Assembly: GCF_003334255.1 (NCBI RefSeq)
Contig: NZ_QOWU01000001.1
Direction: 5' to 3' (one strand)
Source of the DNA: Escherichia coli
GTDB lineage: Bacteria; Pseudomonadota; Gammaproteobacteria; Enterobacterales; Enterobacteriaceae
Length of the DNA stretch: 64,000 nt
The notes beneath the pieces are model-generated. The model was not told the DNA's origin. It saw only the letters and a list, made by a program, of their open reading frames with translations, and did no database searches. Below are positions 32,343 through 55,948 of the stretch, in pieces. Positions within the stretch are counted from its first letter, which is position 1. Every line of letters starts with the position of its first letter. A program made the translations under genes and the position numbers.

Positions 32343-34235
32343 TTACATCACCAGACGGCGAATGTCAGACAGCGTGTTGTTAATGATGGTAATGAAACGG
32401 GCACCATCAGCACCGTCGATCACGCGGTGGTCGAAGGAGAGAGAAATCGGCAGCATCAGACGCGGCACGAACTCTTTACCATTCCACACCGGCTCCATCG
32501 CGGACTTGGAAACGCCGAGGATAGCCACTTCCGGCGCGTTCACAATCGGCGCGAAGTGGGTAGTACCCAGGCCGCCGATGCTGGAGATGGTGAAGCAACC
32601 GCCCTGCATTTCGCCCGCAGTCAGCTTACCGTCACGCGCTTTCTTAGAAATAGTCATCAGCTCGCGAGACAGCTCGATGATGCCTTTCTTGTTGACGTCT
32701 TTGAATACCGGAACAACCAGACCGTTCGGGGTATCCACCGCCACACCGATGTTGATGTATTTCTTCAGGGTCAGACGCTGACCGTCTTCCGACAGCGAAC
32801 TATTGAAGCGAGGCATCTGCTCAAGAGCTGCAGCAACGGCTTTCATGATGAAGACAACCGGGGTGATCTTCACATCCAGCTTACGTTTCGCCGCTTCTTC
32901 GTTCTGCTGTTTACGGAACGCTTCCAACTCGGTGATATCGGTTTTGTCGAAGTGAGTAACATGCGGGATCATTACCCAGTTACGGCTCAGGTTCGCACCA
33001 GAGATTTTCTGGATGCGGCCCAGTTCCACTTCTTCGATTTCACCAAACTTGCTGAAGTCCACCTTCGGCCACGGCAGCATGCCAGGGATACCACCGCCAG
33101 TCGCTGCCGGAGCTGCTTCTGCACGTTTGATAGCTTCTTTCACGTAAGCCTGAACGTCTTCGCGCAGGATACGACCTTTACGGCCAGTGCCCTTCACTTT
33201 CGCAAGGTTAACACCAAACTCGCGTGCCAGACGGCGGATCAGCGGAGTCGCGTGAACATAAGCGTCGTTTTCAGCAAATTCAGATTTGCCTTCCGCTTTC
33301 GCAGCTGGTGCTGCTGCCGGGGCTTCAGCTTTTGCTGCCGGTGCCGGCGCTGCCGCTTCCTGTTTCGCAGGAGCTGCCGCAGGCGCTGCGCCTTCAACTT
33401 CGAAGATCATAATCAGCGAGCCAGTTTTCACTTTATCGCCAACGTTGACTTTCAGTTCCTTCACGACGCCTGCAAACGGCGCCGGAACTTCCATAGAAGC
33501 TTTGTCGCCTTCTACGGTGATCAGTGACTGTTCAGCGGCAACTTTGTCGCCCACTTTCACCATCACTTCAGTCACTTCAACTTCGTCACCGCCGATATCC
33601 GGAACGTTAACTTCTTTCACGCCAGCCGCTGGTGCAGGGGCCGCTGCCGGAGCTGCTTCCTGTTTAGCGGCCGGAGCTGCCGCGCCTGCTTCACCCGCGA
33701 CTTCGAAGACCATAATCAGCGAGCCGGTAGACACTTTGTCACCCACGTTCACTTTGATCTCTTTCACGGTGCCAGCAAACGGAGCCGGAACTTCCATAGA
33801 AGCCTTGTCGCCTTCTACGGTGATCAGCGACTGTTCAGCTTCAACTTTATCGCCAACTTTCACCAGGATTTCGGTCACTTCAACTTCGTCGCTGCCGATA
33901 TCCGGAACGTTAACGTCTTTTGCCGCCGCAGCCGCTGGTGCTGCTGCCGGAGCTGCTTCTTTCTTCTCTTCTGCCTGAGCAGGTGCAGCGTCTGCTGCAC
34001 CGTCGGCGGAATCGAAAATCATAATCAGTGCGCCGGTCTGGGTTTTATCGCCAACAGAGACTTTGATCTCTTTAACGATACCCGCCTGCGGAGACGGAAC
34101 TTCCATAGAGGCTTTGTCGCCTTCTACGGTGATCAGCGACTGTTCGGCTTCAACTTTGTCGCCCACTTTGACCAGGATCTCGGTGATTTCAACTTCATCA
34201 GCCCCGATGTCCGGTACTTTGATTTCGATAGCCAT
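32343..34235 (-). CDS. aceF: dihydrolipoyllysine-residue acetyltransferase (PDH E2) with three lipoyl domains
   Basis: 630 aa; three repeated lipoyl domains each with the EGDKASME lipoyl-lysine motif, Ala/Pro-rich linkers, C-terminal catalytic domain with DHRxxDG. Confidence 0.95.
33290..34235 (-). repeat. triplicated lipoyl-domain coding repeat (about 306-309 bp period) within aceF
   Basis: Near-identical DNA blocks such as ggaacttccatagaagc.ttgtcgccttctacggtgatcag recur at about 33486, 33792 and 34098. Confidence 0.85.
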
Positions 34236-34249
34236 TATTCTTTTACCTC

Positions 34250-36913
34250 TTACGCCAGACGCGGGTTAACTTTATCTGCATCGATGTTGAATTTGGCGAT
34301 TGCGTCAGCAACCACTTTCTTATCGATTTCGCCACGTTTAGCCAGTTCGCCCAGCGCCGCAACCACGACATAAGAAGCATCAACTTCGAAGTGGTGACGC
34401 AGGTTCTCACGGCTGTCGGAACGACCGAAGCCATCAGTACCCAGTACGCGGTAGTCGTCAGCCGGTACGTAAGTACGGACCTGCTCAGCGAACAGTTTCA
34501 TATAGTCGGTAGATGCCACTGCCGGAGCGTCGTTCATCACCTGAGCGATATACGGAACGCGCGGAGTTTCCAGCGGGTGCAGCATGTTCCAGCGTTCACA
34601 ATCCTGACCATCACGCGCCAGCTCGGTGAAGGAGGTCACGCTATAAACGTCAGAACCTACGCCGTAATCTTTCGCCAGGATCTCAGCTGCTTCACGGACG
34701 TGACGCAGGATAGAACCGGAGCCGAGCAGCTGAACTTTACCTTTGCTACCTTCAATAGTTTCGAGTTTGTAGATACCTTTACGGATACCTTCCTCAGCAC
34801 CTTCCGGCATTGCCGGCATGTGGTAGTTTTCGTTCAGCGTAGTGATGTAGTAGTAAACGTTCTCTTGTTTTTCACCGTACATACGCTCCAGACCGTCATG
34901 CATGATGACAGCAACTTCGTAAGCGTAAGCCGGGTCGTAAGAGATACAGTTCGGGATAGTCAGCGACTGAATGTGGCTGTGACCATCTTCGTGCTGCAGA
35001 CCTTCGCCGTTCAGGGTGGTACGACCGGAAGTACCGCCGATCAGGAAGCCACGCGCTTGCTGGTCGCCAGCCGCCCAGCACAGATCGCCAATACGCTGGA
35101 AGCCGAACATCGAGTAATAGATGTAGAACGGGATCATCGGCAGATTGTTGGTGCTGTAAGAGGTCGCCGCTGCCAGCCAGGAACAACCTGCGCCCAGCTC
35201 GTTGATCCCTTCCTGCAGAATCTGACCTTTCTCGTCTTCTTTATAGTAAGCAACCTGCTCGCGGTCCTGCGGGGTGTACTGCTGACCGTTCGGGCTGTAA
35301 ATACCAATCTGACGGAACAGACCTTCCATACCGAAAGTACGCGCTTCGTCGGCGATGATCGGTACCAGACGATCTTTGATCGACTTGTTCTTCAGCATCA
35401 CGTTCAGAGCACGAACGAAAGCGATAGTGGTAGAGATCTCTTTGCTCTGCTCTTCCAACAGCGCGCCGAAGTCTTGCAGGCTCGGCAGCTCAAGCTTCTC
35501 GGTGAAGTTCGGCTGACGGCTTGGCAGATAACCGTGCAGTTTCTGACGCTGAGCGTGCAGATAGGTATGCTCTTCAGAACCTTCCGGGAAGGTGATGTAC
35601 GGCAGTTTTTCGATATCTGCATCAGACACCGGCACATTGAAACGGTCGCGGATATGACGCACACCGTCCATGTTCATTTTCTTAACCTGGTGCGCGATGT
35701 TTTTACCTTCAGCCGCGTCGCCCATGCCGTAACCTTTAATGGTATGAGCAAGGATTACTGTCGCTTTGCCTTTGGTTTCCTGCGCTTTCTTGAATGCAGC
35801 GTAGATTTTCTTCGGATCGTGACCACCACGGTTCAGTGCCCAGATCTGCTCGTCAGTCCAGTCTGCAACCAGTGCTGCGGTTTCAGGATATTTACCGAAG
35901 AAGTGTTCACGAACGTACGCACCATCTTTCGATTTGAAGGTCTGGTAGTCGCCGTCAACGGTTTCGTTCATCAGCTGGATCAGTTTACCGCTGGTATCCT
36001 TACGCAGCAGTTCATCCCAACGGCTACCCCACATCACTTTGATCACGTTCCAGCCAGCACCTTCGAAGATGCCTTCCAGTTCGTTGATGATCTTGCCGTT
36101 ACCGGTGACCGGGCCGTCAAGACGCTGCAGGTTACAGTTGATAACGAAGACCAGGTTATCCAGTTTTTCACGGGTAGCGATGGTGATCGCACCTTTGGAT
36201 TCCGGTTCGTCCATTTCACCGTCACCGAGGAACGCGTAAACGGTTTGTTTAGAGGTATCTTTCAGGCCACGGTGTTCCAGATATTTCAGGAATTTAGCCT
36301 GGTAAATAGCACCAATCGGACCCAGACCCATAGATACGGTCGGGAACTGCCAGAATTCCGGCATCAGTTTCGGGTGCGGATAGGAAGAGAGGCCATTGCC
36401 GTGAACTTCCTGACGGAAGTTATCCAGCTGCTCCTGAGTCAGACGACCTTCCAGGAAAGCACGAGCGTACACGCCCGGGGAGATGTGGCCCTGGAAGTAA
36501 ACCAGGTCGCCGCCATCCTGCTCGTTGCGTGCACGGAAGAAGTGGTTAAAGCACACATCATAAATGGTTGCGGAAGACTGGAAGGACGCCATATGGCCGC
36601 CCAGTTCGAGGTCTTTTTTCGACGCACGCAGCACCGTCATGATGGCGTTCCAGCGGATAGCTGAACGAATACGGCGTTCCAGTTCCAGATTACCCGGATA
36701 CTCCGGTTGTTCTTCAACGGGGATGGTGTTGATGTAGTTGCTGATACCTGTGCCTGCGGCTACGTTTACACCGCCTTTGCGGGCTTCAGCAAGCAGTTGG
36801 TCGATCAGATACTGAGCACGCTCAACACCTTCTTCACGGATGACCGATTCGATCGCCTGGAGCCAGTCGCGAGTTTCGATCGGATCCACGTCATTTGGGA
36901 AACGTTCTGACAT
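34250..36913 (-). CDS. aceE: pyruvate dehydrogenase E1 component
   Basis: 887 aa, [29 protein letters not shown]...; matches AceE. Confidence 0.95.
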
Positions 36914-37073
36914 GGGTTATTCCTTATCTATCTAATAACGTTGAGTTTTCTGGAACCTGTCCCATTGAACTCTCGCCGGAAAGCTCAATAAGACAGGTTC
37001 TACGTTTAGTTGCCGCGCTTTTATATGCGCTTGATTTACAACATCTTCTGGATAATTTTTACCAGAAAAATCA

Positions 37074-48290: not shown

Positions 48291-48496
<206 letters not shown>

Positions 48497-48503
<7 letters not shown>

Positions 48504-48886: not shown

Positions 48887-48945
48887 TGTCTTAAACCTAT
48901 AAAAAAGGCGCAGAATCCTGCGCCTTTTACTTCAACAGTTAGCTT

Positions 48946-51651
48946 TTATTGCAGGCGGCCATGGCACTGCTTGTATTTTTTACCAGAACCGCACGGGCAA
49001 GGATCGTTACGTCCTACTTTGCGCTCTCCGGTTTGCGCCGCCAGTGCAGCTGCGGCTGCAGAGTCGTCATCCTGATGGCTAAGCTGCTGCATTTGCGCTA
49101 AACGCTCGGCTTCCATACGACGCTGTTGTTCCAGCTCCTCAACCTCTTCAGGCATACGTACCTGAACTTTGCTCAGCGTACTGATAACTTCATATTTCAA
49201 CGACTCCAGCATCGCTGCAAACATGGAGAACGATTCACGTTTGTATTCCTGCTTCGGATCTTTCTGTGCGTAGCCACGCAGGTGGATACCCTGACGCAGA
49301 TAGTCCATCGCTGCCAGGTGCTCTTTCCACAGGGAGTCAAGCGTTTGCAGCATGACGCCTTTCTCGAAGTGACGCATCATCTCAGCACCAACCACTTCTT
49401 CTTTACGCTGATACACTTCGATGGACTGCGCCAGAATGCGCTCACGCAGCGTCTCTTCATGCAGTTCTGGTTCTTTATCCAGCCACTCGGCAATTGGCAA
49501 ATCGAGGTCGAAATCGTTCTTCAGACGTTCCTGCAGCCCCGGAATATCCCACATTTCTTCCAGCGACTGTGGTGGAATGTAGGCATCAATGGTCGCTTTG
49601 AACACATCTTCACGAATGCTGTTAATGGTTTCGCTCACATCGCTGACATCCAACAGTTCGTTACGCTGGGAGTAAATGGCGCGACGCTGATCGTTAGCCA
49701 CGTCATCATATTCCAGCAGTTGCTTACGAATGTCGAAGTTACGGCTTTCAACTTTACGCTGGGCGTTGGCAATCGCTTTAGTCACCCACGGGTGTTCAAT
49801 GGCTTCGCCTGGCTTCATACCCAGTTTACGCATCATGCCGGATACTCGGTCGGAAGCAAAAATACGCATCAGCGCATCTTCCATCGACAGGTAGAAACGG
49901 GAAGAACCAGCATCCCCCTGACGACCAGAACGACCGCGCAACTGGTTATCGATACGACGGGATTCGTGACGCTCGGTACCGATGATATGCAGGCCACCTG
50001 CTTCCAGTACCGCATCGTGACGTACCTGCCAGTCGGCTTTAATTTTTTCAATTTGCTCTGCGGTCGGATTTTCCAGCGCGGCAACTTCTGCCTGCCAGCT
50101 ACCACCGAGCACAATATCTGTACCACGACCCGCCATATTGGTCGCGATAGTCACCGCAGCCGGATAACCTGCCTGAGCAACAATCGCCGCTTCGTTGGCG
50201 TGGAATTTGGCGTTCAGGACGTTGTGCTTAATACCGGCTTTGGTCAGTTCGTTTGACACCAGCTCCGATTTTTCGATGGAGATAGTACCCACCAGCACCG
50301 GCTGGCCTTTCGCAGTACGTTCTTTGATATCTTCAATGATCGCCTGAATTTTTTCCGCTTCAGTCATGTAGACCAGGTCCGGCAGATCTTTACGAATCAT
50401 TGGACGGTTGGTCGGAACAACGACGGTATCCAGCTTGTAGATTGAGCTAAATTCGAAAGCTTCGGTATCAGCAGTACCGGTCATCCCCGCCAGTTTTTCA
50501 TACAGACGGAAGTAGTTCTGGAAGGTGATCGAAGCCAGCGTTTGGTTTTCGTTCTGGATCTGCACACCTTCTTTCGCTTCCACAGCCTGGTGCAGACCAT
50601 CGGACCAGCGACGGCCCTGCATGGTACGACCGGTGTGTTCGTCAACGATGATAACTTCACCATCTTTAACGATGTAGTCGACGTCACGGGTAAACAGCGC
50701 ATGAGCGCGCAGCGCCGCCGTTACGTGGTGCATCAGCATGATGTTGGCCGGAGAGTACAGAGACTCCCCTTCATCCATGATGCCCTCTTTCACCAGCAGT
50801 TCTTCAATCAGCACCAGACCACGTTCGGTCAGGTTCACCTGGCGAGATTTTTCGTCCACCGAGAAGTGGCCTTCGCCCTGGAAGGTTTCGGAGTCTTCTT
50901 TTTCCTGACGGATCAGGTGCGGAATAATTTTATTCACGCGTTTATACATTTCCGAGCTGTCTTCTGCCGGGCCGGAAATGATCAGCGGTGTACGCGCTTC
51001 ATCGATCAGGATGGAGTCCACTTCGTCCACCAGCGCATAGTGCAGTTTACGCTGTACACGTTCTTCAGGGCTGAACGCCATGTTGTCGCGCAGGTAGTCA
51101 AAGCCGTATTCGTTGTTCGTACCGTAAGTGATGTCAGCTGCGTAAGCTTCGCGCTTTGCCGGTGCTGGCATGCCCGGCAGGTTGATACCGACAGTCAGGC
51201 CAAGGAATTCAAACAGCGGACGGTTGTTTTCGGCGTCACGTTGCGCCAGGTAGTCGTTGACGGTAACTACGTGCACGCCTTTACCGGTTAGTGCGTTCAG
51301 GTAAGCAGGCAGCGTTGCGGTCAGGGTTTTTCCTTCACCGGTACGCATTTCGGCGATGCAGCGTTCGTTAAGAACCATACCGCCGAGTAACTGAACGTCG
51401 AAGTGACGCATACCAAAGACGCGCTTACTTGCCTCACGTACCACGGCGAAAGCTTCCGGGATCAGATTTTCCAGCACTTCGCCTTTTTCCAGACGTGCAC
51501 GAAACTCTGCGGTTTTCCCTTTCAGTTCTTCGTCGGAGAGTTTTTCCATCTCCGGTTCCATGGCATTGATGATGTTGACCACTTTGCGCATCCGGCGCAG
51601 GGTGCGATCGTTACGACTACCGAAAACTTTAGTTAACAATTTGATTAGCAT
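48946..51651 (-). CDS. secA: preprotein translocase ATPase SecA
   Basis: 901 aa, [25 protein letters not shown]...; DEAD-like motor; C-terminal zinc-binding [14 protein letters not shown]. Confidence 0.97.
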
Positions 51652-53473: not shown

Positions 53474-54625
53474 TTAATCAGCTTGCTTACGCAGGAATGC
53501 TGGGATATCCAGATAATCCGGCTCTTTCGCAGTTTGCGGCGCATTGTCATTCACGACTTTAGCAACCGGCTTCTGCTCCTGGGTCAGCGGAGCCATCCCA
53601 TGCTGCTGGTAGCGATCCATCACTGGCTGCTGAACCTGCTTATTGGTCACCAGAGTGATTTCAGGACGTTTGTCCATGCCGATACCTGTCGCAACAACGG
53701 TTACGCGCAGCTCGTCATTCATATCCGGGTCAAGAGAAGTACCGATAACCACAGTCGCGTTGTCGGAAGCAAATGCACGGATGGTGTTACCTACCGTTTC
53801 GAACTCATCCAGACGCAGGTCGAAGCCCGCCGTGATGTTAACCAGCACGCCGCGCGCGCCAGACAGGTCGATATCTTCCAGCAGCGGAGAAGAGATAGCC
53901 ATTTCAGCAGCTTCTTCCGCACGGTCTTCACCGCTCGCCACGCCAGAACCCATCATTGCGTAGCCCATCTCAGACATTACGGTGCGTACGTCTGCAAAGT
54001 CCACGTTCATCAAACCCGGACGAGTAATCAGTTCAGCGATACCTTGCACAGCGCCTTTCAGTACATCGTTCGCTGCGCCAAACGCATCCAGCAGGGAGAT
54101 ACCGCGGCCCAGAACTTTCAGCAGTTTGTCGTTCGGGATAGTGATCAGAGAGTCCACATGCTTGGACAGTTCAGTGATCCCCTGCTCCGCGAATGCCATA
54201 CGCTTCTTGCCTTCAAAGTTGAAAGGCTTAGTGACGACAGCAACGGTCAGGATACCCAAATCTTTTGCCACTTCAGCGACGACTGGTGCTGCACCTGTAC
54301 CGGTACCACCACCCATACCCGCAGCAATAAAGACCATGTCTGCACCTTCCAGCGCCGCACGCAATGCATCGCGATCCTCATCAGCCGCATTGCGGCCAAC
54401 TTCTGGATTAGCGCCAGCGCCCAGTCCTTTGGTGATACCGCTACCGATTTGAATCGTCTGTCCAACCGCTGTTTTACGCAGCGCTTGTGCATCGGTATTT
54501 ACCGCGAAGAATTCAACACCTTCAATGCGCTCGCGCACCATGTGTTCAACAGCATTACCGCCGCCGCCGCCGACGCCGATGACTTTAATCACCGCGTCAT
54601 TGGTAAGTTCCATTGGTTCAAACAT
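53474..54625 (-). CDS. ftsZ: cell division GTPase FtsZ
   Basis: 383 aa, tubulin signature GGGTGTG. Confidence 0.97.
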
Positions 54626-54685
54626 AGTTTCTCTCCGATTTGTGCCTGTCGCCTGAGGCCGTAATCATCGTCGGCCTCATAAAAA

Positions 54686-55948
54686 TTAAAACTCTTTTCG
54701 CAGCCAACTATTGAGTCGCTTGATCCACGAGCCAACTGATGCTGTAACACGTTTTTCTACTTCAGCTTCACCGTTAAGATGTGACTCTTTCCCATAGTGA
54801 AGCAATCCCACCGCCGTCGAATAATACGGCTCCTGAGCATAATCCGTTAAACCGGTAATGTTCAGCGGCGCGCCGATACGCACTTGCGTATGAAACACGC
54901 GCTGAGCACAGGCTGCAAGACCTTCGATCTGCGCTGCGCCACCGGTTAATACAATGCCTGCCGCCAGGTGATGTTTAACCCCTTGTTGGCGAAGCTTTTC
55001 CTGCAACTGCAATATCTCTTCGTTGACCAGGTTGAGCAGCTCGGTATAGCGCGGCTCGATCACCTCTGCCAGTGTCTGACGTTGCAGACTCCGTGGCGGA
55101 CGACCACCTACGCTCGGCACTTCCACGCTCTCATCTTTTCCAACGATGGAACCCAGCGCACAACCGTGGCGAACTTTAATCGCTTCGGCGTCGCTTGGCG
55201 GCGTGCCAAAGGCGTAAGCGATATCACTGGTCACGACATTGCCAGCATAAGGAATTACCTTAGTGTGGCGCAATGCCCCACCGGTATAAACGGCGATATC
55301 CATTGTACCACCACCGATATCGACGACGCAGACACCCAGTTCACGTTCATCTTCCGTCAATACCGAATAACTTGATGCCAGTCCGGCAAATATCAGTTGG
55401 TCAACTTTCAGCCCACAACGTTCAACCGCTTTGACGATGTTTTTCGCCATATCGTTGTGACATGTGATCAGGTGCACTTTTGCCTGCATCCGCACGCCCG
55501 AAAGTCCTACCGGATTCTTGATCCCTTCCTGATAGTCAATCGCATACTCTTGCGGGATCACATGCAGCACACGATGCTCATCGCGCACACGCACCGATTT
55601 CGCGGTATGGACGACGTTTTCCACATCTTCTTGCGTCACTTCTTCTTCAGAAATAGGCACCATACCAATTTCATTCTGGCAGCTGATGTGCTTACCAGAA
55701 AGCGCCAGATATACCGAAGAGATCTGACAATCTGCCATCAATTCTGCCTGGTCAATGGCGCGTTGTACGCACTTGACCACGGATTCGAGGTCGTTCACCC
55801 CGCCTTTATCCATACCACGCGACGGGCAGCTGCCCACGCCAATGATATTGACCATACCGTCGGGCAGAACTTCCCCTACTAAAGCGGCAACCTTCGCGGT
55901 ACCAATCTCCAGTCCTACTACCAGTTTTCTGTCCGTCGCCTTGATCAT
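54686..55948 (-). CDS. ftsA: cell division protein FtsA (actin-like ATPase)
   Basis: 420 aa, [20 protein letters not shown].... Confidence 0.96.

What the first reader, a model, noticed from the sequence alone, without database searches (positions are those of the whole stretch)
33290..34235. Triplicated lipoyl-domain repeat in aceF generates long antisense ORFs
Three copies of about 306 bp, at over 85 percent nucleotide identity by eye, encode the three lipoyl domains and Ala/Pro linkers. The repeat is a substrate for homologous deletion or expansion, and the GC-rich Ala/Pro linker codons produce the 230-aa plus-strand ORF at 33286-33978, which is very likely a shadow ORF.
Basis: seen in the sequence. 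Interest (0 to 1): 0.2.

Follow-up and report, generated by a model that had tools for sequence, protein, structure and literature searches.

The report
Three lipoyl-domain repeats in E. coli aceF
This is the textbook triple lipoyl-domain repeat of the E. coli pyruvate dehydrogenase E2 gene (aceF); the long ORF on the opposite strand is a by-product of the AceF protein sequence, and rare natural strains have lost or gained one repeat.

Summary
aceF lies on the minus strand at 32343-34235 and is 100% identical to E. coli alleles. It starts with three tandem units of 309, 303 and 309 nt (33312-34232). Each unit encodes a lipoyl domain plus an Ala/Pro linker. Nucleotide identity between units is 77-84%, not over 85%.

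The 230-aa plus-strand ORF (33286-33978) exists and behaves as a shadow ORF:
- All 2000 synonymous-codon shuffles of aceF give an equal or longer open stretch in that frame.
- It has no ATG, no Shine-Dalgarno-like motif and no family match.
- Its stop positions move between genera.

The cause is not mainly the linkers, because 61% of the ORF lies opposite folded domains. AceF residues 1-318 contain no Tyr or His, and only one of their eight Gln codons follows a T-ending codon. Those are the only contexts that can make a stop in that frame. Longer antisense ORFs lie opposite non-repeated aceE (757 aa) and the aceF catalytic part (409 aa).

The recombination idea is borne out. Among 5424 complete E. 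coli genomes, 8 carry two-domain alleles in four junction classes, 4 clonal genomes carry a 192-nt out-of-register deletion, and none has four domains. Four-domain alleles do occur in draft E. coli assemblies and in Salmonella and Citrobacter records.

This is known biology of low interest.

The parts
32343..34235 (-). aceF coding sequence (630 aa plus stop), the dihydrolipoyllysine-residue acetyltransferase (E2p) of pyruvate dehydrogenase
   Evidence: ORF and translation. NCBIfam NF008814 scores 1101.5 bits against a cut-off of 722. It matches PDB 7b9k_A over residues 1-630. It is 100% identical to aceF of E. coli genomes. Operon context is pdhR-aceE-aceF-lpdA.
33924..34232 (-). Repeat unit 1 (309 nt): lipoyl domain 1 (Pfam residues 4-73 = 34017-34226; lipoyl-Lys41 = 34113-34115) plus linker 1
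   Evidence: the DKA motif is at aa 40-42.
33621..33923 (-). Repeat unit 2 (303 nt): lipoyl domain 2 (residues 107-176 = 33708-33917; Lys144 = 33804-33806) plus linker 2
33312..33620 (-). Repeat unit 3 (309 nt): lipoyl domain 3 (residues 207-277 = 33405-33617; Lys245 = 33501-33503) plus the first part of linker 3
   Evidence: PDB 1qjo and 2k7v (innermost lipoyl domain) match residues 206-284 and 206-293.
34093..34136 (-). Most conserved core of unit 1, encoding [14 protein letters not shown] around the lipoyl-lysine. The paralogous cores are 33784-33827 (unit 2) and 33481-33524 (unit 3). Most natural unequal crossovers map in or next to this core.
   Evidence: The longest exact identity runs between units lie here: 32 nt (u1/u2), 23 and 20 nt (u2/u3), 26 nt (u1/u3). 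Junctions were painted.
33150..33257 (-). Peripheral subunit (E3/E1) binding domain, residues 327-362
   Evidence: Pfam PF02817, E = 7.5e-16.
32349..33041 (-). Catalytic acetyltransferase domain, residues 399-629, containing the DHRVIDG motif
   Evidence: Pfam PF00198, E = 3.4e-80; sequence.
33286..33978 (+). Shadow ORF of 230 aa with a TTG start, antisense to linker 3, units 3 and 2 and the end of linker 1. In this frame the third codon position coincides with the aceF third codon position.
   Evidence: All 2000 synonymous shuffles give an open stretch at least as long. There is no ATG and no SD-like motif, and 72% of residues are A/S/T/P/G. No NCBIfam or Pfam match. Stop positions are not conserved across genera.
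32298..33527 (+). Second shadow ORF of 409 aa in the codon-aligned antisense frame, opposite the aceF catalytic domain, binding domain and part of lipoyl domain 3
   Evidence: This frame has a single stop in the whole gene, at 33525, opposite the only TCA codon (codon 237). No family match.

Best explanation
The region is the 5' half of E. coli aceF. It encodes three tandemly repeated lipoyl domains. Each carries a lipoyl-lysine in a DKA motif and is followed by a flexible Ala/Pro-rich linker. [quoted passage not shown] The domains act as swinging arms that carry acetyl groups between the E1, E2 and E3 active sites. This function is established knowledge for this protein and was not tested here.

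At the DNA level the three units of about 303-309 nt are 77-84% identical. They share exact runs of up to 32 nt around the lipoyl-lysine codons. Those runs are enough for rare unequal homologous recombination. The recombinants are in-frame alleles with two or four domains. The recombination pathway is inferred from the junctions and was not tested.

The plus-strand ORFs are not genes. The 230-aa ORF is open because AceF residues 1-318 contain no Tyr or His, and seven of their eight Gln codons follow a codon that does not end in T. The 409-aa ORF opposite the rest of aceF and the 757-aa ORF opposite aceE are open because these highly biased genes almost never use TTA, CTA or TCA.
For: Identity of the gene and its domains.

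Repeat anatomy and significance.

Literature:
- E. coli E2p has three lipoyl domains that are 73% identical (PMC8421416).
- That paper cites Stephens et al. 1983 for the aceF sequence and Guest et al. 1985 for genetic reconstruction of the repeating domains.
- One domain suffices after in vitro deletion, and Serratia symbiotica has naturally lost one or two domains (PMC5013485).
- Lowering the domain content reduces growth rate and yield (title of Dave et al. 1995, as cited in PMC11754459).

Natural recombinants:
- A flank-distance search shows 12 of 5424 complete E. coli genomes with a contracted array and none expanded by more than about 70 nt.
- Sequences show u2N/u3C core hybrids in C2, C4, Rb-50 and VTB97379v. 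These four differ from each other at 15-29 of 1777 sites.
- A u1N/u2C core hybrid occurs in 01_3327 and 03_3013.
- Two different linker-to-linker junctions occur in FDAARGOS_1283 and DSM 103263.
- Four-domain alleles carry u2N/u1C or u3N/u2C hybrids. They occur in draft and metagenome E. coli assemblies, in Salmonella records (two on contigs of 4.47 and 4.68 Mb) and in a Citrobacter draft assembly.

Shadow ORF.
Against: Nothing contradicts the main reading. There are four caveats.
- Four-domain alleles were seen only in draft, metagenome or older assemblies and in 0 of 5424 complete E. coli genomes. Some could be assembly artefacts of graph cycles through the shared 23-32-nt runs. One junction (L006) maps to a 5-nt identity window, which a de Bruijn artefact would not produce.
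- Absence of translation of the antisense ORF is inferred from sequence only.
- Synonymous codon identity between units 2 and 3 is higher than codon usage predicts (47 observed against 31.6 expected, z = 4.2). Some gene conversion, or a younger u2/u3 duplication, therefore also shapes the repeat; the two were not separated.
That rule was calibrated only by the behaviour seen.
Confidence: 0.96

Rival explanations
1. The 230-aa plus-strand ORF (33286-33978) is a real overlapping antisense protein-coding gene embedded in aceF.
For: It is a long open frame of 230 codons. Its third codon positions coincide with aceF third positions, so both frames could in principle be conserved together. It stays open in all E. 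coli alleles examined, and its length follows the domain number.
Against: - The open stretch is no longer than expected: 2000 of 2000 synonymous-codon shuffles of aceF give at least 714 nt (mean 929).
- It has no ATG, only TTG or GTG starts, and none has an SD-like motif. The product is 72% A/S/T/P/G.
- No NCBIfam or Pfam family matches it.
- Stops fall at different places in a relative with 89% protein identity (codon 188), in Salmonella (codons 87 and 109) and in Citrobacter (codons 151 and 392).
- RefSeq annotates only aceF there.
- No paper in the library links aceF with an antisense overlapping gene.
Confidence: 0.02
2. The two-domain and four-domain alleles are assembly artefacts caused by collapse or expansion of the repeat, not real alleles. 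On this view the repeat is stable in nature.
For: The units share exact runs of 23-32 nt. These could create cycles in small-k assembly graphs. The observed hybrids (u1N/u2C, u2N/u1C, u3N/u2C) are what traversing such a cycle zero or two times would give. No four-domain allele occurs in 5424 complete genomes.
Against: - The two-domain alleles are in finished, circular chromosomes from unrelated projects.
- The same protein, WP_032220595.1, occurs in three backgrounds (C2, C4, Rb-50) that differ at 21-25 of 1777 flanking sites.
- Two junctions lie in linkers where identity runs are at most 13 nt. One four-domain junction lies in a 5-nt window. These are too short for k-mer artefacts.
- Four-domain alleles recur in independent samples and on Salmonella contigs of 4.47 and 4.68 Mb.
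- Natural domain loss is documented in Serratia symbiotica (PMC5013485).
Confidence: 0.05
3. The high similarity of the three units is kept up mainly by ongoing gene conversion (concerted evolution), not by protein-level constraint on an old triplication.
For: Identical codons at identical residues exceed the codon-usage expectation: 37 against 29.5 (u1/u2), 36 against 27.9 (u1/u3) and 47 against 31.6 (u2/u3, z = 4.2). Several strain polymorphisms switch a site to the base carried by a paralogous unit (painting).
Against: The excess is modest for u1. The units still differ at 16-23% of nucleotides, and unit-specific residues are stable across E. coli, Salmonella and Citrobacter. Conversion is therefore at most occasional. 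Strong codon bias and a younger u2/u3 split could give the same signal.
Confidence: 0.2

Closest known systems
E. coli K-12 AceF (E2p), sequenced by Stephens, Darlison, Lewis and Guest 1983; structure PDB 7b9k
   Same: The protein matches PDB 7b9k_A over all 630 residues at 1323 bits. The nucleotide sequence is identical to aceF of E. coli genomes whose coordinates match K-12. It has three lipoyl domains, the binding domain and the catalytic core.
   Different: Nothing; this is the same gene.
Engineered aceF alleles with fewer lipoyl domains (Guest et al. 1985; Dave et al. 1995)
   Same: The natural alleles found here remove exactly one unit in frame (-300 to -309 nt) and leave two lipoyl domains. 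This resembles the laboratory deletions, which showed that one domain suffices for activity (PMC5013485 citing Guest 1985).
   Different: These are natural isolates (cattle, chicken, human), not constructs. The junctions are homologous crossovers in the lipoyl-lysine core or in the linkers. The fitness cost reported for reduced-domain constructs (title of Dave 1995) was not measured for them.
AceF of Serratia symbiotica endosymbionts with one or two lipoyl domains (PMC5013485)
   Same: This is natural loss of lipoyl domains from a three-domain enterobacterial AceF.
   Different: There the loss is fixed in reduced genomes. Here it is a rare polymorphism (8 of 5424 genomes) in free-living E. coli, and rare gains to four domains are also seen.
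Shadow ORFs opposite highly expressed bacterial genes
   Same: The open antisense frames are explained by sense-strand codon and amino-acid usage. aceE, aceF and lpdA have 2, 1 and 2 TTA/CTA/TCA codons. The shuffle test shows no excess ORF length.
   Different: The flagged ORF is in the frame shifted by one base from the usual codon-aligned frame. Its openness depends on the lack of Tyr and His, and on Gln codon context, in the lipoyl and linker region.

Membership tests
AceF / E2p long form (NCBIfam NF008814, TIGR01348) | Whole-protein score above the curated equivalog cut-off | tested here: met
   NF008814 scores 1101.5 bits against 722, and TIGR01348 scores 1041.6 against 552.1.
AceF / E2p long form (NCBIfam NF008814, TIGR01348) | N-terminal lipoyl domains (PF00364), each with a lipoyl-lysine in a DKA motif | tested here: met
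   Three PF00364 hits at residues 4-73, 107-176 and 207-277, with E = 1e-21 to 5e-23. DKA motifs are at aa 40, 143 and 244.
AceF / E2p long form (NCBIfam NF008814, TIGR01348) | Peripheral subunit-binding domain followed by a 2-oxoacid dehydrogenase acyltransferase catalytic domain with the DHRxxDG motif | tested here: met
   PF02817 at residues 327-362 and PF00198 at 399-629. The sequence [12 protein letters not shown] is in the translation.
AceF / E2p long form (NCBIfam NF008814, TIGR01348) | Operon context pdhR-aceE-aceF-lpdA | tested here: met
   The window has an 887-aa ORF at 34250-36913 (-) and the lpdA ORF at 30594-32051 (-). The annotation of an E. coli genome carrying an identical aceF shows pdhR-aceE-aceF-lpdA.
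AceF / E2p long form (NCBIfam NF008814, TIGR01348) | Lipoylation and acetyltransferase activity | not testable with these tools
   Inferred from the full-length match to the structurally characterised E. coli protein (PDB 7b9k, 4n72, 1qjo).
Genuine antisense overlapping protein-coding gene | Open frame longer than the sense gene's protein sequence and codon usage would give by themselves | tested here: not met
   Observed 714 nt. All 2000 synonymous shuffles give at least 714 nt, mean 929.
Genuine antisense overlapping protein-coding gene | Frame and boundaries conserved in related genera | tested here: not met
   Stops fall at sense codons 188 (relative with 89% protein identity), 87 and 109 (Salmonella), and 151 and 392 (Citrobacter). 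In E. coli the bounding stops are at codons 87 and 326.
Genuine antisense overlapping protein-coding gene | Plausible start codon with a ribosome-binding site, and homology to a protein family | tested here: not met
   Only TTG or GTG starts, none with an SD-like motif. No NCBIfam hit. The best Pfam hit has E = 0.25.
Genuine antisense overlapping protein-coding gene | Evidence of transcription and translation | not testable with these tools
   No expression data are available here. No paper in the library links aceF with an antisense overlapping gene.
Recombination-prone, copy-number-variable tandem coding repeat | Natural alleles that differ by whole units, with junctions in homologous register | tested here: met
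   Deletions of 300, 303, 306 and 309 nt occur in 8 complete genomes, and gains of 303 and 309 nt in draft assemblies. The hybrid units were painted.

The most novel reading that the evidence does not exclude
Lipoyl-domain number in AceF may be a recurrent natural polymorphism within E. coli and Salmonella. At least four independent one-unit deletions occur among 5424 complete E. coli genomes, and four-domain alleles occur in several E. coli, Salmonella and Citrobacter assemblies. It might be under selection, tuning pyruvate dehydrogenase flux in particular hosts, and not merely neutral or slightly harmful recombination noise. I found no paper in the searched library that describes within-species variation of this kind.
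Probability: 0.12. Interest if true: 0.35.

Novelty: already known. Interest (0 to 1): 0.1.

Why it matters
The finding mainly serves as a clean negative. A striking internal repeat with a long antisense ORF turns out to be the long-known lipoyl-domain triplication of aceF plus a shadow ORF.

Three practical points follow:
- Antisense ORF length in this operon says nothing about coding. It follows from codon bias and from the lack of Tyr and His.
- The repeat does recombine in nature. Two-domain alleles occur at about 0.15% in finished genomes. Annotation pipelines can mislabel these intact alleles as pseudogenes, as happened for strains 01_3327 and 03_3013.
- Short-read variant calls inside the array should be treated with care.

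Tried and rejected
1. Searching the repeat itself (946 nt) against complete E. coli genomes to find short alleles. The coverage statistic was useless. Pieces matching paralogous units were joined, so all 5424 genomes appeared at least 80% covered. Only the weakest row (strain 463) hinted at a deletion.

2. Junction-specific short queries with strict E-value thresholds. I considered these and dropped them, because each crossover class would need its own query and paralogous pieces could be joined. I replaced them with a query made only of the two unique flanks, which exploits the tool's distance rule for joining pieces.

3. A dN/dS-style test on the antisense ORF. I rejected it because in that frame the antisense third codon position coincides with the aceF third position. 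Synonymous variation in aceF is therefore largely synonymous in the antisense frame too, and the test has little power.

4. The protein database search lists only the 120 best scores. It revealed four-domain proteins, which score higher, but could not reveal two-domain ones.

5. A literature search for an aceF antisense overlapping gene found nothing. A search for aceF repeat changes in experimental evolution found only unspecified low-frequency aceF alleles (PMC4350175).

6. One mis-registered comparison (third value, 0.34) should be ignored.

Full report
**What is there.** The minus-strand ORF 32343-34235 (630 aa) translates to a protein with three near-identical N-terminal segments, then Ala/Pro-rich stretches, then a C-terminal acyltransferase part. 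It is 100% identical at the nucleotide level to aceF of E. coli genomes, and 5424 of 5426 complete E. coli genomes carry it. It scores 1101.5 bits on the NCBIfam equivalog for the pyruvate dehydrogenase E2 component, against a cut-off of 722. Pfam finds three Biotin_lipoyl domains (residues 4-73, 107-176, 207-277), an E3_binding domain (327-362) and a 2-oxoacid_dh catalytic domain (399-629). The protein matches chain A of PDB 7b9k, the native E. coli complex, over all 630 residues. The neighbours are aceE (34250-36913, minus) and lpdA (minus), as in the annotated pdhR-aceE-aceF-lpdA operon.

**The repeat.**
- The repeat finder gives three 300-nt copies spaced 303 and 309 nt apart. Tandem Repeats Finder gives period 303, 2.7 copies and 80% matches.
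- In codon register the units are 33924-34232, 33621-33923 and 33312-33620.
- Pairwise gapped nucleotide identity is 80.1%, 77.0% and 83.6%. Amino-acid identity is 75-86%.
- The similarity is far beyond chance. The same 300-mer against 60,699 other offsets of the window gives 25.1 ± 2.9% identity, maximum 40.3%.
- The longest exact runs shared by two units (32, 26 and 23 nt) sit at the codons for [14 protein letters not shown] around the lipoyl-lysine.
- Identical residues use identical codons somewhat more often than aceF codon usage predicts, most clearly for units 2 and 3 (47 against 31.6 expected, z = 4.2). Either these two units split more recently or occasional gene conversion acts on them. 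This was not resolved.

[quoted passage not shown] PMC5013485 states that one domain suffices after in vitro deletion. It also states that Serratia symbiotica AceF has naturally lost one or two domains. Dave et al. 1995, by its title as cited in PMC11754459, reports that lowering the domain content reduces growth rate and yield.

**Is the repeat a recombination substrate in nature?** I used a 720-nt query made only of the unique flanks: 360 nt upstream of the aceF start joined to 360 nt starting at gene position 961. The search tool joins two aligned pieces only when they lie within half the query length plus 500 nt. With this query, only genomes with a shortened array give a joined match.
- Twelve of 5424 complete genomes did. 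Eight have lost 300-309 nt and four clonal Taiwanese isolates have lost 192 nt.
- A 1060-nt flank query, with a joining limit of 1030 nt against the native 960-nt gap, joined in all 5424 genomes. No complete E. coli genome therefore has an expansion of more than about 70 nt.
- Strains C2, C4, Rb-50 and VTB97379v carry a hybrid of unit 2 (N-terminal part) and unit 3 (C-terminal part), with the crossover in the conserved core. The four loci differ from each other at 15-29 of 1777 sites, so they sit in different backgrounds.
- Strains 01_3327 and 03_3013, which are identical to each other, carry a unit 1/unit 2 core hybrid.
- FDAARGOS_1283 (-300 nt) and DSM 103263 (-306 nt) have two different linker-to-linker junctions that remove lipoyl domain 2.
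- The -192-nt allele joins two VGDKV-coding motifs out of register, one late in domain 2 and one early in domain 3.
- Strain 300709 has a 12-residue duplication in linker 3.

**Four-domain alleles.** In the wider protein collection the best-scoring relatives are 723-738-aa proteins with four lipoyl domains. They come from E. coli draft and metagenome assemblies, from Salmonella records (two on contigs of 4.47 and 4.68 Mb) and from a Citrobacter draft assembly. Their DNA shows the reciprocal hybrids: u2N/u1C and u3N/u2C. L005 and L006 encode the same protein but have different crossover positions, which points to independent events. Because these come mostly from short-read assemblies, some artefact risk remains. 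However, the L006 junction lies in a 5-nt identity window, which a k-mer artefact would not produce.

**The antisense ORF.** The plus-strand ORF 33286-33978 exists. The three antisense frames of aceF contain 1, 7 and 44 stops.
- In the frame of the 230-aa ORF, a stop can only arise opposite a Tyr codon, or opposite a Gln or His codon that follows a T-ending codon.
- AceF residues 1-318 have no Tyr, no His and eight Gln. Only Gln87 follows a T-ending codon (GCT-CAG), and this gives the stop at 33976. The other boundary stops lie opposite Tyr326 and His328.
- Shuffling synonymous codons among identical residues 2000 times always gave an open stretch at least as long as the observed 714 nt (mean 929). 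The ORF therefore needs no explanation beyond the AceF sequence.
- 61% of the ORF lies opposite the folded domains, so the linkers are not the main cause.
- It has no ATG and no Shine-Dalgarno-like motif, and its product is 72% Ala/Ser/Thr/Pro/Gly. It has no family match.
- Its stops move in a relative with 89% protein identity, in Salmonella and in Citrobacter. In E. coli its length simply follows the number of repeat units.
- The phenomenon is operon-wide. There is a 757-aa ORF opposite aceE, a 409-aa ORF opposite the rest of aceF and a 285-aa ORF opposite lpdA. The aceE and aceF ones are in the codon-aligned frame (own arithmetic for aceE). aceE, aceF and lpdA contain only 2, 1 and 2 TTA/CTA/TCA codons.

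**Verdict.** It is wrong in attributing the ORF to the repeat or to the linker codons. Everything central here has been known since the 1980s. The only mildly new item is the count of natural two-domain and four-domain alleles. Interest is low.

Noticed in passing
window 34391-36664 (+), 32298-33527 (+), 30567-31424 (+): There are longer antisense ORFs than the flagged one: 757 aa opposite aceE, 409 aa opposite the aceF catalytic part and 285 aa opposite lpdA. The aceE and aceF ones are in the codon-aligned antisense frame. They are explained by the near absence of TTA, CTA and TCA codons: 2, 1 and 2 in aceE, aceF and lpdA.
   Followed up: partly
window 36916-37029 (+): An Rfam match to the tp2 small RNA (103 bits against a gathering score of 50). 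It starts just beyond the aceE start codon at 36913, on the strand opposite the pdh operon.
   Followed up: no
window 48304-48381, 48421-48497, 48901-48970, 54617-54706 (all -): Rfam matches above gathering score: two naRNA4 copies, STnc40 and PssrA.
   Followed up: no
L001:3001-4701 (E. coli strain 463; also strains 439, 446, 447): An in-frame 192-nt (64-aa) deletion in aceF joins two VGDKV-coding motifs out of register. It fuses most of lipoyl domain 2 to the middle of domain 3. The resulting chimeric domain probably does not fold, while domain 1 stays intact.
   Followed up: partly
L010 and L019 (E. coli strains 01_3327 and 03_3013): The RefSeq annotation marks their aceF as a pseudogene ('missing N-terminus'). 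The two-domain allele nevertheless has its ATG and an intact reading frame. This is probably an annotation artefact of the shorter length.
   Followed up: partly
L011:731-2456 (E. coli strain 300709); hits H15, H26, H137, H175, H177, H158: There are small linker-length polymorphisms in aceF. Strain 300709 has a +36-nt duplication of [12 protein letters not shown] in linker 3. Several strains carry alleles of -12 nt, and one carries +9 nt (spans).
   Followed up: partly
P0035 (680 aa) and P0038 (668 aa), E. coli records in the protein collection: P0035 has a 50-residue duplication of the peripheral subunit-binding domain region. P0038 has a 38-residue partial duplication inside lipoyl domain 2. 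I did not check whether these are real or assembly errors.
   Followed up: no
E. coli genome collection: A few matches to aceE-aceF lie on records labelled as plasmids (3-6 places). One laboratory strain (JCL301) retains only the last 96 nt of aceF.
   Followed up: no
PMC4350175 (literature): A chemostat population-sequencing study reports three aceF alleles persisting together at low frequency. Given the internal repeat, it would be worth checking whether those calls lie in the lipoyl array, where short reads can be mis-mapped.
   Followed up: no
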